This document shows, piece by piece, positions 60,496 to 62,319 of a DNA stretch of 64,000 nucleotides (positions within the stretch are counted from its first letter, which is position 1; the number at the start of each line of letters is the position of its first letter). The stretch is from Candidatus Omnitrophota bacterium (GTDB taxonomy: Bacteria > Omnitrophota > Gorgyraeia > Zapsychrales > Fredricksoniimonadaceae), in the NCBI GenBank assembly GCA_963828495.1, contig CAWHFJ010000009.1, forward strand, positions 170,338-234,337, read 5' to 3'. Under the pieces are notes generated by a model. It was not told the origin of the DNA and ran no database searches. It worked only from the letters and a program-made list of their open reading frames with translations. The translations under genes were made by a program, and so were the position numbers.

Positions 60496-60624
60496 CTATC
60501 GATGGCTGATAGTCTTCGGCCATTTATATTGTTGGCTCTTTAATTTGTCAGGATAGGCCCTCTTCTTTTCTCGAAGCAGCCTTGATATATCCTTCTGCCG
60601 CCTTGCGCCAGCCTGCTTTCCCAT
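60496..60624 (-). CDS. 42-aa basic small protein, paralog 1 (MGKQAGARRQKDISRLLREKKRAYPDKLKSQQYKWPKTISHR)
   Basis: Below the ORF-track cutoff. Codon-by-codon comparison with 62191..62319 shows mostly third-position synonymous differences in the core. Confidence 0.65.
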   Translation of the reverse strand: MGKQAGARRQKDISRLLREKKRAYPDKLKSQQYKWPKTISHR

Positions 60625-60651
60625 TCAATGCCCCCTGATCAAGTAAACGTT

Positions 60652-60789
60652 ATTGATTAAACCGACTCATCTCGTCGAGCGACTTCCTTGTCTTGGCTTT
60701 TGCTTTGTCATCTGCCGGATAACCAACGCTAAGCATCATATCAATCTTACGGTTTTGGGGAATCCCCAGCGCCCGTTTAACCGCTCCTT
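60652..60789 (-). pseudogene. Orphan 3' fragment of a nitroreductase gene (45 codons, intact frame)
   Basis: About 94% identical to 57764-57900 (7 substitutions plus 1 indel by hand alignment). It reads GAVKRALGIPQNRKIDMMLSVGYPADDKAKAKTRKSLDEMSRFNQ*. Homology stops abruptly at the hairpin at 60790. Confidence 0.8.
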
Positions 60790-60816
60790 AAAAATAGGGA
60801 GCAACGCCCTATTTTT
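60790..60816 (-). terminator. Terminator-like hairpin AAAAATAGGG-agcaacg-CCCTATTTTT (copy 2)
   Basis: Same stem as 60183-60209 with one loop difference. It overlaps the stop codon (60809-60811) of the zinc-ribbon/HNH-like gene. Confidence 0.7.
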
Positions 60817-61726
60817 TATTTGAATCGTAACCCTTTAACTCCTCCTCGAGAGGGTAACGCCTGTTCCAGAAAACCGGCCTTCTCTTGCGGATCTTTTTGC
60901 CTTTCTTTTTATAATCAGCCAGCGCTTCGATGTAATACCAAAATTCCTCTGAGGTCAGGTCAAGCTTCATAACGCTTAACAAGGCGAATGTGATGACGAT
61001 TTTGCTTCCCCCGGGTCTCCAATGATTGATGACGCAATACCACGGGCTAGTGGGATCTTTCATATCAAGGCGCATCTTGGTGTAAAAGCAAAAATAGCCG
61101 ATCTGGCGGATATAGTTGATGACATCTGCCACAGCCTGAGGTGAAAATGGCCCGCCATCACTCTTGAGACGACGGGCCATTCTTGCGCATACAGGGCAGT
61201 AGGTGAACATCTTGCTTCGAAGACGCTTGCCGCACATGTCGCATATCCCTGTCCCGCGCGTTGGACAAACTCGGGGTTCTAAGGCTGTCTCCGGTTCTGT
61301 GAAAGCGTAATGATGGTCCCAATAACGAAGCTTCCTTTTTCTCACCGGTATATGATTCCGCTTAAAGCTGGCCAGGGCGTTGATGATCCACCAAAACTCT
61401 TCTTCAGCAAGGTCTGTTTTCATGCCATTGATTAACGCAGACGTGATCACGACCTTGCGTGGATCATGCGGCGCCCAATGGTCAAAAACGCAAAACCACG
61501 GGCTATGAGGATCTTCCCTATCAAGCGCCATCCCCGTGTAATAACAGACATACCCGTACTTTTTTACATATTCCCAAATTTCTTTAACGACCTTGGGAGG
61601 ATATTGCCTTGTTTTCATACGAAAGGCGAATCTGGAGCATATGGGGCAATATATTGAAAACTTGGTAGGAACAGGCTTGCCGCAGATGTAGCATTTCTTA
61701 TGGCGTTTGCGGGGAGTTTTAAGCAT
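60809..61726 (-). CDS. Tandem-duplicated zinc-ribbon + HNH-like (beta-beta-alpha-Me) domain protein
   Basis: Two ~140-aa halves align as C..CGK..YCP.C.R..GY.C.YT.M.LD..DP.SPW.CV..HW.P..K.VIT.AL..MK.DL..EEFW. Half 1 keeps FDHW..ALINGMK (D-H..N). Half 2 has INHW..ALLSVMK. Confidence 0.4.
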   Translation of the reverse strand: MLKTPRKRHKKCYICGKPVPTKFSIYCPICSRFAFRMKTRQYPPKVVKEIWEYVKKYGYVCYYTGMALDREDPHSPWFCVFDHWAPHDPRKVVITSALINGMKTDLAEEEFWWIINALASFKRNHIPVRKRKLRYWDHHYAFTEPETALEPRVCPTRGTGICDMCGKRLRSKMFTYCPVCARMARRLKSDGGPFSPQAVADVINYIRQIGYFCFYTKMRLDMKDPTSPWYCVINHWRPGGSKIVITFALLSVMKLDLTSEEFWYYIEALADYKKKGKKIRKRRPVFWNRRYPLEEELKGYDSNKK

Positions 61727-61761
61727 TTATAAATGATAACCCGACGAATCGGGTACGATGT

Positions 61762-62160
61762 TTATTGTTTAGGAACATCCAATTTAAAAAGTTTATTAAT
61801 TTCAGATAACAATTTTTCTGCTTTAAATGGTTTCGCTATGGCCGTATAAAATTTCCCATTAATAGTTGCTTGTCGTGTTTCTTCATTTTCAGGCACATTA
61901 ACCATCGCGCCAGAAATAAAAATAATAGGGATATTTTCTGTTTTCACATCAGCCTGTAAAAGCCTAACAGCATCCGTTCCATCCATATCAGGCATTATAA
62001 TATCCATAACAATCAGATCCGGTTTTTGTAATTGGGCTTCTCTTATTCCTTCTTTGCCATTAACCGCGGATATGGCCTCATACCCATTACGTTTTAACTT
62101 TGCTAAGATAATTCTCACAAAGTCGGGCTCATCATCCACCACTAATATCTTCTTAGACAT
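61762..62160 (-). CDS. Single-domain CheY-like response regulator
   Basis: MSKKILVVDDEPD..LIVMDIIMPDMDG..IAKPF, with the acidic pocket, phospho-acceptor Asp and conserved Lys. Likely ATG at 62160 (SD AAGGGGGA). The track ORF starts at 62181. Confidence 0.8.
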   Translation of the reverse strand: MSKKILVVDDEPDFVRIILAKLKRNGYEAISAVNGKEGIREAQLQKPDLIVMDIIMPDMDGTDAVRLLQADVKTENIPIIFISGAMVNVPENEETRQATINGKFYTAIAKPFKAEKLLSEINKLFKLDVPKQ

Positions 62161-62190
62161 ACAATCCCCCTTACTTATCATAATCTCCGT

Positions 62191-62319
62191 TTATCTATAA
62201 CTACTCGTCTTCGGCCATTTATTTTGCTGACTCTTCAATTTGTCCGGATACGCCTTTCGCTTGTCCCGAAGGAGCCTTGATATGTCCTTCTGTCGTCTAG
62301 TATTAGTTTGCTTAGCCAT
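62191..62319 (-). CDS. 42-aa basic small protein, paralog 2 (MAKQTNTRRQKDISRLLRDKRKAYPDKLKSQQNKWPKTSSYR)
   Basis: Below the ORF-track cutoff. Same length and frame as 60496..60624. The conserved core is RRQKDISRLLR-K--AYPDKLKSQQ-KWPKT. Confidence 0.65.
   Translation of the reverse strand: MAKQTNTRRQKDISRLLRDKRKAYPDKLKSQQNKWPKTSSYR

What the first reader, a model, noticed from the sequence alone, without database searches (positions are those of the whole stretch)
60496..62319. Unannotated 42-aa basic protein family with a purifying-selection signature between two paralogs
The ORFs at 60496..60624 and 62191..62319 (both minus strand) have identical length. Aligned codon by codon, I count 14 synonymous codon differences and 10 amino-acid changes in 42 codons. 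In the core (codons 8-38) there are 11 synonymous changes against 4 conservative replacements (E/D, K/R, R/K, Y/N). That third-position pattern is what a translated, selected gene shows, not a conserved non-coding element. The product (RRQKDISRLLR.K..AYPDKLKSQQ.KWPKT) is Lys/Arg-rich, and I recognise no family. Both copies fall below the 60-aa cutoff of the ORF track.
Basis: seen in the sequence. Interest (0 to 1): 0.7.

Follow-up and report, generated by a model that had tools for sequence, protein, structure and literature searches.

The report
Conserved basic microprotein gene family
Two unannotated 42-codon genes in this Omnitrophota genome belong to a large, undescribed family of tiny, highly positively charged, single-helix proteins that is clearly kept by selection on the protein, although what the protein does is still unknown.

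Summary
The ORFs at 60496..60624 and 62191..62319 (minus strand) are each 42 codons. They differ at 14 synonymous and 10 replacement codons, with 20 of 32 base changes at third positions.

The interpretation also holds. Profile searches find 110 clusters (50% identity) and 761 proteins. 430 metagenomic stretches also encode relatives. In 77 distinct gene sequences the first 30 codons contain no stop and no indel. Replacement sites differ far less than synonymous ones (pN 0.21, pS 0.90). All five other frames are closed or unconstrained, including the antisense frame that shares third positions.

The product is 33-45 residues long with net charge about +10.6. It is predicted to be one helix with a near-invariant core, T-R-R-Q-K-D-I-S-R-L-L-R-E-K-K, conserved on every helix face. 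It matches nothing in Pfam, NCBIfam, PHROGs, PADLOC, PDB or searchable papers.

Copies sit in at least 58 unrelated contexts. Some genomes carry several copies, and many copies are translationally coupled to neighbouring genes. There is no general link to Fic.

My best guess, at modest confidence, is a trans-acting helix that binds a conserved polyanionic partner such as RNA, the ribosome or DNA. The main rival is a cis-acting leader or coupling cistron. It is a real new microprotein family of unknown function.

The parts
60496..60624 (-). Small ORF A, 42 codons: MGKQAGARRQKDISRLLREKKRAYPDKLKSQQYKWPKTISHR
   Evidence: Closest relatives are an uncalled 39-codon gene in a 99%-identical strain (L120, 92% nt identity) and L030.
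62191..62319 (-). Small ORF B, 42 codons: MAKQTNTRRQKDISRLLRDKRKAYPDKLKSQQNKWPKTSSYR
   Evidence: It is closer to copies in other metagenomes (L031, L032; 82% and 79% nt identity) than to ORF A (77%), so the two are old paralogs.
60631..60635 (-). GGGGG Shine-Dalgarno-like run 6 nt upstream of the ORF A start. An in-frame TGA directly abuts the ATG.
   Evidence: Read from the sequence.
62326..62330 (-). GGGGA Shine-Dalgarno-like run upstream of the ORF B start.
   Evidence: Read from the sequence.
60475..60489 (-). Linker motif GTTATGATAAAAGGG between the ORF A stop and the start of the next gene. It contains the 9-bp palindrome TTATGATAA followed by an SD-like run.
62170..62184 (-). Linker motif ATTATGATAAGTAAG between the ORF B stop and the response-regulator start.
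62333..62347 (-). Third copy of the linker motif, GTTATGATAAGTAGG, just upstream of ORF B.
   Evidence: The same motif precedes three genes in L030.
60218..60466 (-). 82-aa three-segment membrane protein, 29 nt downstream of ORF A. It matches NCBIfam NF037947 'holin_4'.
   Evidence: 1.3e-25, 89.7 bits, cut-off 70. No Pfam or PHROG hit.
61762..62160 (-). 132-aa stand-alone response-regulator receiver, 30 nt downstream of ORF B.
60809..61726 (-). 305-aa internally duplicated Cys-rich protein, the last gene of the ORF B unit.
   Evidence: D7; weak endonuclease VII PHROG hit, 1.8e-5.
60786..60819 (-). 34-nt A-run/hairpin/T-run element that ends the ORF B-RR-305aa unit. A 97%-identical copy lies at 60179-60212 and ends the ORF A-holin unit.
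   Evidence: (D16), read from the sequence. Terminator function is inferred.
60179..60212 (-). Second copy of the 34-nt hairpin element, after the holin-like gene.
   Evidence: D16.
60652..60789 (-). Intact 3' end of a nitroreductase gene (...GYPADDKAKAKTRKSLDEMSRFNQ*), cut off at the hairpin. Its stop lies 27 nt upstream of ORF A.
   Evidence: (D3).
62445..62476 (-). Terminator-like hairpin after the upstream Fic gene, which suggests ORF B starts its own transcription unit.
   Evidence: consensus scan only.

Best explanation
SHOWN: ORF A and ORF B are genuine protein-coding genes of a large, undescribed microprotein family.
- The family is found mainly in Omnitrophota.
- Members are 33-45 residues long (modal length 34).
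- Net charge is about +10.6.
- The pattern is M-[AP]-[KR]-[QE]-x-[IV]-T-R-R-Q-K-[DN]-[IV]-S-R-L-L-R-E-[KR]-K-x4-D-K-L-K-x2-K-K-K.
- Each gene carries its own Shine-Dalgarno sequence or promoter.
- Some genomes hold several old paralogs.
- Copies are wedged into many unrelated operons, often overlapping the stop of the gene before (TAATG) or the start of the gene after (ATGA).

INFERRED: the product is a free, trans-acting, single cationic alpha-helix. It may pair through a narrow hydrophobic seam formed by I6, I13, L16/L17, Y24 and L28. Its basic stripe (R8, K11, R15, R18) and Lys tail clamp onto a conserved polyanionic partner. The most likely partner is RNA or the ribosome, with DNA less likely.

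Because every face of residues 7-21 is conserved, the helix is probably fully enclosed by that partner. Which partner it is, and what the cell gains, are not known.
For: Coding status:
- 0 of 77 homologues have a stop or indel in 30 codons.
- pN is 0.21 against pS 0.90, and median dN/dS is 0.14.
- All five other frames are closed or unconstrained.
- 95% of members start with Met at the same position.

Family size: 110 clusters at 50% identity, 761 proteins, and 430 metagenomic stretches.

Helix: AlphaFold2 predicts a helix over residues 2-23 and 25-32, with pLDDT 92 over residues 11-20.

Composition and conservation:
- Net charge is +10.6.
- Residues 7-21 are each 79-100% conserved (the K/R class at position 20) at all helical angles.
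- The basic stripe lies opposite the hydrophobic seam.

Autonomy, which favours a trans role:
- The modal 34-residue form occurs at variable distance from any downstream gene.
- In L009 the gene is followed by a terminator-like hairpin and a convergent gene.
- L012, L049 and L055 have a TATAAT box 9 nt before the start codon.
- There are 58 unrelated flank contexts with no shared flank motif.
- The strain comparison keeps the ORF at 92% identity while both flanks differ.
- The window's paralogs are saturated at synonymous sites yet share an identical core apart from an E/D change at residue 19.
Against: - No binding partner, structure match or experiment supports nucleic-acid binding. The inference rests on charge, helicity and the conservation pattern only.
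- Multiple copies per genome would be more natural for a cis-acting element. Each copy is tightly coupled to a different operon: 30 of 78 overlap the downstream start, and 14 of these are ATGA overlaps where I saw no Shine-Dalgarno sequence for the downstream gene (read by eye in about eight of them).
- No conserved hairpin or operator lies next to the genes.
- Translation has not been observed directly.
- The AlphaFold2 model rests on a 5-sequence alignment, and any short basic peptide tends to be modelled as a helix.
Confidence: 0.4

Rival explanations
1. Cis-acting leader or coupling cistron. In this reading the small ORF is a portable 'SD + mini-cistron' that delivers ribosomes to the next gene by termination-reinitiation. 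Its conserved nascent peptide, a polybasic helix in the exit tunnel, would tune that delivery.
For: - 30 of 78 downstream genes start inside the small ORF. 14 of these use ATGA overlaps, and in those I read no Shine-Dalgarno sequence of their own was visible.
- T[AG]ATG stop-start overlaps occur at the 5' end in 28 of 83 copies, against 16% background.
- The SD 'AAGGAG..TTTAAGTA' travels with the ORF, so unrelated upstream proteins end in ...KEQFK*.
- Several old paralogs per genome are each kept under selection.
- A helix conserved on all faces would fit a tunnel-embedded peptide.
- In-frame fusions to downstream proteins exist (P0012, P0044, P0064, P0096, L081, L104).
Against: - Geometry is not fixed. 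17 of 78 copies have more than 100 nt to the next gene, and at least one has none, only a convergent gene.
- Conservation is N-terminal while the C-terminus is variable. Known arrest peptides show the opposite pattern.
- The distance from the core to the stop varies by more than 10 residues.
- Pure coupling would not need amino-acid conservation.
Confidence: 0.2
2. Selfish or hitch-hiking micro-gene. In this reading it is a discrete module that spreads by duplication and recombination within variable islands. It would be maintained for its own propagation or as a recombination handle, with little benefit to the host.
For: - 58 unrelated contexts.
- Frequent neighbours are toxin-antitoxin pairs, ORF6N, a transposase and SoFic.
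- In the sister strain L120 only the ORF itself is shared (92% identity), while sequence on both sides is unrelated inside an otherwise 99.3%-identical genome.
- Lineage-specific triplication in JBDRAM01 (L017 twice, L018).
Against: - No inverted repeats, target duplications or recombinase travel with it.
- Synonymous sites between paralogs are saturated, so copies are old, not recently mobile.
- Strong purifying selection on all 15 core residues implies a molecular function.
- Almost absent from viral contigs: 1 hit in 2.9 million.
Confidence: 0.1
3. Exported cationic peptide or RiPP-like precursor, with a conserved leader and a variable C-terminal core, used against other cells.
For: - The N-terminal 30 residues are conserved and the tail is hypervariable.
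- Copies are multiple and scattered, as for prochlorosin precursors (my own knowledge).
- A cationic amphipathic helix resembles antimicrobial peptides.
- Downstream genes are modestly enriched for membrane or secreted proteins: 21 of 57 against 25% background, p=0.03.
Against: - No signal peptide or double-glycine leader.
- No modification enzyme or transporter recurs nearby.
- Tails are just Lys/Arg-rich and often exist only because they overlap the next gene's start.
- RiPP leaders are not normally +10 charged (my own knowledge).
Confidence: 0.06
4. Component of the neighbouring Fic (SoFic-like) defence or toxin modules, for example a small antitoxin or regulator.
For: In the window the two ORFs lie between two SoFic-like genes (4.8e-53 and 4.9e-43). 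Class I Fic toxins are known to have small antitoxins (my own knowledge).
Against: - None of the other roughly 60 contexts examined contains Fic.
- The strain L120 keeps ORF A without any Fic gene.
- The inhibitory (S/T)xxxE(G/N) motif is absent from the peptide.
- A terminator-like hairpin separates Fic from ORF B.
- No PADLOC hit.
Confidence: 0.03
5. Not a protein gene. In this reading it is a conserved non-coding RNA or DNA repeat, or a gene on the opposite strand.
For: The pair's similarity extends into non-coding linker DNA. The antisense frame shares third codon positions and is open in both window copies (62240..62368 on the plus strand).
Against: - Third positions are nearly saturated across the family while the amino acids are fixed.
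- The antisense frame has stops in 35 of 77 sequences and a higher pN/pS.
- The other four frames have stops in 60-71 of 77.
- No Rfam match.
Confidence: 0.02

Closest known systems
Very small basic ribosome-associated proteins (bS22 of actinobacteria and Bacteroidota, bTHX of Thermus, SRA/RpsV of E. coli). Comparison from my own knowledge.
   Same: 30-45 residues, extremely Lys/Arg-rich, helical or extended, overlooked by annotation, and presumed to contact RNA.
   Different: - No sequence similarity: NCBIfam, Pfam and PDB profile searches were all empty.
- This family is multi-copy, lies in variable operons and islands rather than fixed loci, and has a distinctive acidic/hydrophobic signature (D12, I13, L16, L17, E19).
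Arginine-rich-motif RNA-binding helices (lambda/P22 N, HIV Rev) and bZIP basic regions. Comparison from my own knowledge.
   Same: A short basic helix with T-R-R...R..R.RK spacing, in which charge and a few polar residues are the conserved features.
   Different: - No adjacent boxB-like hairpin or shared operator.
- No invariant bZIP Asn, no leucine zipper, no Pfam bZIP hit.
- It is a whole protein, not a domain.
Fur-regulated basic proteins FbpA/B/C of Bacillus, which are small basic putative RNA chaperones. Comparison from my own knowledge.
   Same: Roughly 30-60-residue basic proteins of unproven mechanism, with several paralogs per genome.
   Different: No Pfam hit to the Fbp families at E<=0.1. 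The phyla differ and no sRNA partner is known.
Leader or arrest peptides and upstream coupling cistrons (SpeFL, TnaC, SecM). Comparison from my own knowledge.
   Same: About 24-35 codons, immediately upstream of and often overlapping the regulated gene, with a conserved peptide sequence.
   Different: - Those peptides are tied to one specific downstream gene and are conserved at the C-terminal arrest site.
- This family precedes dozens of unrelated genes, or none.
- It is conserved at the N-terminal two-thirds.
Metagenome-derived conserved small-ORF families (large smORF catalogues). Comparison from my own knowledge.
   Same: Unannotated, under 50 codons, and recognised by conservation and dN/dS only.
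   Different: The family is unusually large, with an unusually invariant 15-residue core. It is multi-copy and shows characteristic stop-start overlaps at both ends.

Membership tests
Genuine protein-coding small gene | Reading frame open and free of frame-breaking indels in all homologues | tested here: met
   0 of 77 distinct sequences have a stop in codons 1-30. 77 of 83 share the same motif register and 6 differ by one N-terminal residue.
Genuine protein-coding small gene | Purifying selection specific to this frame | tested here: met
   pN 0.21 against pS 0.90, median dN/dS 0.14. The five other frames have pN/pS 0.46-1.97 and stops in 35-71 of 77 sequences.
Genuine protein-coding small gene | Start codon with a ribosome-binding site or promoter | tested here: met
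   80 of 83 start with ATG. SD-like runs lie 6-10 nt upstream. Some copies have TATAAT 9 nt upstream.
Genuine protein-coding small gene | Direct evidence of translation (Ribo-seq, mass spectrometry) | not testable with these tools
   No expression data are available.
Any curated protein family (Pfam, NCBIfam, PHROGs, PADLOC, PDB) | Significant profile match | tested here: not met
   No hit at E<=0.1 to 1. The PDB profile search at E<=10 was empty.
Class I Fic antitoxin (VbhA-like) | Inhibitory (S/T)xxxE(G/N) motif and conserved adjacency to a Fic gene | tested here: not met
   The motif is absent from the sequences. Fic is adjacent only in this window.
Type I toxin | Hydrophobic transmembrane helix | tested here: not met
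   No hydrophobic stretch. Net charge is +10.6.
Arrest or leader peptide | Fixed position relative to one regulated gene, with a conserved C-terminal arrest motif | tested here: not met
   Downstream gaps range from -29 to more than 300 nt and the downstream genes are unrelated. Conservation is N-terminal.
Arrest or leader peptide | Translational coupling to the downstream gene | tested here: inconclusive
   30 of 78 overlap the downstream start, but 17 of 78 are more than 100 nt away.
Ribosomal protein | Single-copy gene in a stable, conserved context | tested here: not met
   2 copies in the window, 3 in JBDRAM01, and 58 different contexts.
Lambda-N-type ARM antiterminator | Cognate RNA hairpin (boxB) near the gene | tested here: not met
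   No shared 8- or 9-mer or hairpin in the +/-150 nt flanks across 58 context groups.
RiPP precursor | Recurrent neighbouring maturation enzyme or transporter | tested here: not met
   Neighbours are heterogeneous: DUF4301, GT2, cyclophilin-like, DUF6485, PanB, SppA, CODH/ACS.
Known RNA family | Rfam covariance-model match | tested here: not met
   No match at E<=1 in 57000-64000.

The most novel reading that the evidence does not exclude
The family may be a portable regulatory mini-cistron. It would be a self-contained SD-plus-ORF cassette whose invariant polybasic nascent helix acts inside the ribosome, or on the mRNA it is made from. In that way it would set translation of whatever gene lies downstream, letting Omnitrophota plug unrelated or newly acquired genes into one common translational control.
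Probability: 0.15. Interest if true: 0.8.

Novelty: new member of a known kind. Interest (0 to 1): 0.45.

Why it matters
This gives a clean, well-supported example of a large microprotein family that standard annotation misses. The genes were uncalled in the window's sister strain and absent from the protein collection for the window itself. The family comes from a phylum known almost only from metagenomes.

The 15-residue core is conserved on every helix face across hundreds of sequences whose synonymous sites are saturated. That implies a very specific and probably ancient molecular partner.

Practical consequences:
- The stop-start overlaps mean that the ends of neighbouring genes are mis-annotated. 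Some database entries are artificial fusions.
- If the cis-acting reading were right, it would be a new way of wiring gene expression.
- If the trans-acting reading is right, it is a candidate new ribosome- or nucleoid-associated factor.

Tried and rejected
- Non-coding repeat or RNA element: rejected by third-position saturation and an empty Rfam search.
- Antisense ORF sharing third positions: rejected.
- Fic antitoxin or defence component: rejected by the context survey and the Fic-less sister strain.
- Homology to known families: Pfam, NCBIfam, PHROGs, PADLOC, a PDB profile search, and full-text searches for the peptide strings were all empty.
- Phage origin: only 1 hit in 2.9 million viral contigs, next to a transposase.
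- A shared operator or hairpin near the genes: k-mer enrichment over 58 context groups gave only low-complexity words. The TTATGATAA linker is confined to the window and L030.
- A conserved functional partner: none emerged. The most recurrent neighbour is DUF4301, seen in 4 diverged lineages plus one fusion. It has no known function and no literature.
- Association with membrane or secreted downstream proteins: only weak, 37% against 25%, p=0.03, and the loci are not independent.
- Looking up the window's own ORFs and the Fic gene in the contig index found nothing.
- Fold search was not attempted, because a single helix gives meaningless matches.
- The apparent tRNA fragment at the window's end could not be confirmed as a tRNA.
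Full report
1. THE OBSERVATION

Both ORFs are present on the minus strand at 60496..60624 (A) and 62191..62319 (B). Each is ATG to stop and 42 sense codons long.

- 14 synonymous sense-codon differences, plus the stop codon.
- 10 replacements.
- In codons 8-38, 11 synonymous changes against 4 conservative replacements.

Base differences fall 7/5/20 over codon positions, binomial p = 6.9e-4. Nei-Gojobori values for the pair are pS 0.77 and pN 0.11. 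The two copies are therefore old duplicates whose protein has been held constant.

Both start codons are well defined. An in-frame stop lies 0-7 codons upstream and a G-rich SD-like run lies 6-8 nt upstream. There is no third copy in the window.

2. IS IT REALLY CODING?

A single pair cannot settle this. The antisense frame whose third positions coincide with the sense frame's would give the same periodicity, and that frame is open in both window copies. I therefore collected homologues.

Sources of homologues:
- A word-index search with ORF B found three small proteins.
- A profile of five sequences, scored against 1.84 billion representatives, found 110 clusters at E<=1e-3, almost all 33-55 residues long.
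- A 51-sequence profile found 761 proteins at E<=0.01.
- The metagenome scan found 430 encoding stretches.
- The species-representative genome scan found 11 loci. All are in MAGs labelled Omnitrophota or 'Planctomycetia'.

From about 110 loci I extracted 83 distinct nucleotide versions. Among the 77 in the commonest register:
- None has a stop or indel in the first 30 codons.
- Diversity by codon position is 0.31/0.20/0.56.
- Pooled pN is 0.21 against pS 0.90 (saturated).
- Median pairwise dN/dS among unsaturated pairs is 0.14.

All other frames fail:
- The two shifted sense frames have stops in 68-71 of 77 sequences.
- The in-register and +1 antisense frames have stops in 60-64 of 77.
- The third-position-sharing antisense frame has stops in 35 of 77, with pN/pS 0.46 against 0.24 for the sense frame.

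Rfam finds nothing in 57-64 kb.

3. WHAT THE PROTEIN LOOKS LIKE

A logo from 294 family members gives M-[AP]-[KR]-[QE]-x-[IV]-T-R-R-Q-K-[DN]-[IV]-S-R-L-L-R-E-[KR]-K-x4-D-K-L-K-x2-K-K-K.
- The modal length is 34 residues, with a second mode at 39-40.
- Mean net charge is +10.6.
- Residues 7-21 are each 79-100% conserved (the K/R class at position 20), so every face of a helix is constrained.

AlphaFold2 on the 5-sequence alignment gives a helix over residues 2-23 and 25-32, with a kink at P25. Mean pLDDT is 74, rising to 92 over residues 11-20.

Placing the logo on a helical wheel:
- R8, K11, R15 and R18 fall in a stripe centred near 180 degrees.
- I6, I13, L16/L17, Y24 and L28 form a narrow seam near 0 degrees with roughly heptad spacing.

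The C-terminal tail is variable but Lys/Arg-rich. In the window's clade it reads ...KSQQxKWPKT(ISHR/SSYR/K).

There is no match in Pfam, NCBIfam, PHROGs, PADLOC or the PDB profile search. No paper in the searchable library contains the peptide strings. Sources call the homologues 'hypothetical protein' or do not call them at all.

4. WHERE THE GENES SIT

The window is Omnitrophota. Its phosphate acetyltransferase has only Omnitrophica/Omnitrophota among its named hits.

Flank clustering gives 58 unrelated contexts among the 83 versions, with no shared flank motif.

Neighbours seen:
- CODH/ACS operons: L010 and the P0003 contig; L011 holds CdhD-like and pterin-binding-like ORFs assigned by eye only.
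- DUF4301: four diverged lineages plus one in-frame fusion.
- Family-2 glycosyltransferases.
- Cyclophilin-like proteins.
- DUF6485.
- PanB.
- YjbQ.
- SppA.
- Flavodoxin-like and nitroreductase genes.
- Small membrane proteins and lipoproteins.
- Toxin-antitoxin pairs.
- ORF6N proteins.

The only quantitative trend I found is a weak excess of downstream proteins with an N-terminal hydrophobic segment: 21 of 57 against 25% background, p = 0.03, with loci not independent.

Gene ends are tightly packed:
- T[AG]ATG, where the start overlaps a stop, occurs in 28 of 83 against a 16% background (p = 5e-5).
- 30 of 78 downstream genes start inside the small ORF. 14 of these are ATGA overlaps, and in the ones I read no SD of their own was visible.
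- In L021 and L027 the SD and spacer AAGGAGCARTTTAAGTAATG travel with the ORF, so two unrelated upstream proteins both end in ...KEQFK*.

On the other hand:
- 17 of 78 have more than 100 nt to the next gene.
- The L009 copy is followed by a terminator-like hairpin and a convergent gene.
- Several copies have a TATAAT box 9 nt before the start, preceded by a T-run (L012, L049, L055).

Copy number is above one in the window (2) and in MAG JBDRAM01 (3). Only one hit was found in 2.9 million viral contigs, beside an IS-type transposase.

5. THE WINDOW LOCUS

Reading the minus strand, the order is as follows.
- A SoFic-like gene (62589..63683; PADLOC 4.8e-53).
- A terminator-like hairpin (62476-62445).
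- The linker motif GTTATGATAAGTAGG.
- ORF B.
- The same linker again.
- A 132-aa response-regulator receiver (61762..62160).
- A 305-aa duplicated Cys-rich protein.
- A 34-nt hairpin element (60819-60786).
- The intact 3' end of a nitroreductase gene (60789-60652).
- ORF A.
- The linker once more.
- An 82-aa membrane protein matching NCBIfam 'holin_4' (1.3e-25).
- A second, 97%-identical copy of the hairpin (60212-60179).
- A second SoFic-like gene (58605..59960).

The linker explains why the DNA similarity of the two copies runs past the stop codon. It is restricted to this window and to L030, which holds the closest metagenomic relative of ORF A and has the motif in front of three genes.

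A sister strain (L120) is 99.3% identical over window 44298-57762, and it carries a different island.
- It keeps the 305-aa gene at 97.6% identity.
- After its own terminator comes an uncalled 39-codon ORF A ortholog, MGKQAGARRQKDISRLLREKRKAYPDKLKSQQNKWPKTK. It is 92% identical at the DNA level, but only across the ORF.
- That ortholog is ATGA-coupled to an unrelated 104-aa gene.
- There is no ORF B, response regulator, holin-like gene, nitroreductase fragment or Fic.

So the small gene is retained while its neighbours are exchanged. Fic is not part of its system. ORF A and ORF B each have closer relatives elsewhere than each other.

6. MECHANISM

What is shown: a translated-looking, strongly selected, autonomous microprotein gene family.

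What is inferred is ranked as follows.

(a) Trans-acting cationic helix, about 0.4. It would bind a conserved polyanionic partner, RNA or the ribosome first and DNA second, possibly as a pair through the hydrophobic seam.
- In favour: the charge, the helix, the basic stripe opposite the seam, and conservation on all faces, which suggests an enveloping and very conserved partner.
- Also in favour: the frequent stand-alone arrangement with its own promoter or terminator.
- Against: no direct evidence, and several coupled copies per genome.

(b) Cis-acting leader or coupling cistron whose nascent peptide matters, about 0.2.
- In favour: the overlaps, the absence of a visible SD on the coupled downstream genes I read, the retention of several copies, and the fusions.
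- Against: the variable geometry, the N-terminal rather than C-terminal conservation, and copies with nothing downstream.

(c) Selfish or hitch-hiking module, about 0.1.

(d) Exported cationic peptide or RiPP-like precursor, about 0.06.

(e) Fic-associated factor, about 0.03.

(f) Not coding, about 0.02.

The remainder is 'something else'.

7. COMPARISON WITH KNOWN THINGS

The family works most like the very small basic ribosome-associated proteins or arginine-rich RNA-binding helices. It is a member of none of them:
- Profile searches are empty.
- It is multi-copy and context-free.
- No cognate hairpin accompanies it.

It resembles leader peptides in size and position. It lacks their fixed partner gene and C-terminal arrest motif.

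8. VERDICT

Novelty is that of an undescribed microprotein family, one more of a kind now found in large numbers in metagenomes. It is unusual for its size, its invariant all-face core, its multiple copies and its double stop-start overlaps.

Interest is moderate, 0.45. It is well founded and experimentally tractable with a synthetic peptide, but no function is demonstrated and the host phylum is essentially uncultured.

Noticed in passing
window 60475-60489, 62170-62184, 62333-62347 (minus); L030 1073-1095, 2024-2045, 2196-2207, 2337-2352: A lineage-specific intergenic linker, GGRG(A)TTATGATAAGTAGG, sits between stop and start of several unrelated genes. It comprises the 9-bp palindrome TTATGATAA, stops in two frames, and then an SD-like run. 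It occurs only in this island and in L030. It could be a translational junction, an operator or a recombination site.
   Followed up: partly
window 60179-60212 and 60786-60819: Two 97%-identical copies of a 34-nt A-run/hairpin/T-run element (CCTTAAAAATAGGGAGCARCGCCCTATTTTTTAT) bracket a 607-nt unit holding the nitroreductase fragment, ORF A and the holin-like gene. They look like bidirectional terminators reused as cassette boundaries.
   Followed up: partly
window 57764-58299 and 60652-60789 (minus): A nitroreductase gene is broken by frameshifts into at least three pieces. A 90%-identical but intact copy of its last ~45 codons is stranded upstream of ORF A. Recombination between these repeats would delete the Fic451/holin/ORF A segment.
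   Followed up: partly
window 57763-~63900 versus L120 1-7546: A strain with 99.3% identity in the core (window 44298-57762) has a completely different island from position 57762 on. It shares only the 305-aa gene, ORF A and a 200-nt piece (window 58344-58544). This is a strain-variable defence or accessory island.
   Followed up: yes
window 58605-59960 and 62589-63683 (minus): Two Fic-domain proteins with C-terminal HTH regions both match the PADLOC SoFic model (4.9e-43 and 4.8e-53). These are two candidate anti-phage genes within 5 kb.
   Followed up: partly
window 60809-61726 (minus): A 305-aa protein made of two homologous halves (61019-61100 resembles 61475-61556), each with CxxC zinc-ribbon pairs. 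It has a weak PHROG hit to endonuclease VII (1.8e-5). It is conserved at 97.6% in the sister strain.
   Followed up: partly
window 60030-60175: Two short arrays of a 10-nt unit, TTAGTAG(A/G)TA (2.7 and 3.7 copies), each followed by TTGCTA..GAAATTTTA. They lie just upstream of a strong promoter-like site (TTGACA-17-TATTAT, 60016-59988) for the 451-aa Fic gene. They may be operator or iteron-like repeats.
   Followed up: no
window 63841-63865 (minus): A 25-mer, GGTTCAAATCCGTCTAGGGCTACCA, looks like the T-loop, acceptor and CCA end of a tRNA. No complete tRNA is found there by ARAGORN, Rfam or folding. It may be an att-site remnant marking the island edge.
   Followed up: partly
window 31774-31855 and 43518-43599: The 3' end of the comM/Mg-chelatase-like gene (30363-31883) is repeated 11.7 kb downstream at 80% identity. 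This is the signature expected if an element had integrated into comM.
   Followed up: no
window 14496-14824 and 50856-51184: About 70% DNA similarity between parts of two large ORFs (938 aa and 1281 aa) that have no Pfam match. These are paralogous large unknown proteins.
   Followed up: no
L026 4102-4542, L027 4062-4098, L028 4437-4816, L078: A second recurring module follows the small ORF. It is a gene starting MNKKQLIVAWVMG... (lipoprotein or membrane protein) fused to the small ORF's stop by ATGA. L027 keeps only a decayed remnant of its first codons.
   Followed up: partly
P0012, P0044, P0064, P0096; L081 2470-3204; L104 3001-3966: Database proteins exist in which the microprotein is fused in frame to the next gene. 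The partners are a prepilin-like protein, a secreted nuclease, DUF4301, SppA and an alpha/beta hydrolase. These are either real stop-loss fusions or annotation artefacts.
   Followed up: no
L030 1875-2021: Another unannotated 48-codon, Lys-rich ORF (MSPFRSKAQMAYLYINHPDIAKRWSKEFPNQNIKRLPKHVKKSKGKRK) lies in the same cassette-like array as the ORF A relative.
   Followed up: no
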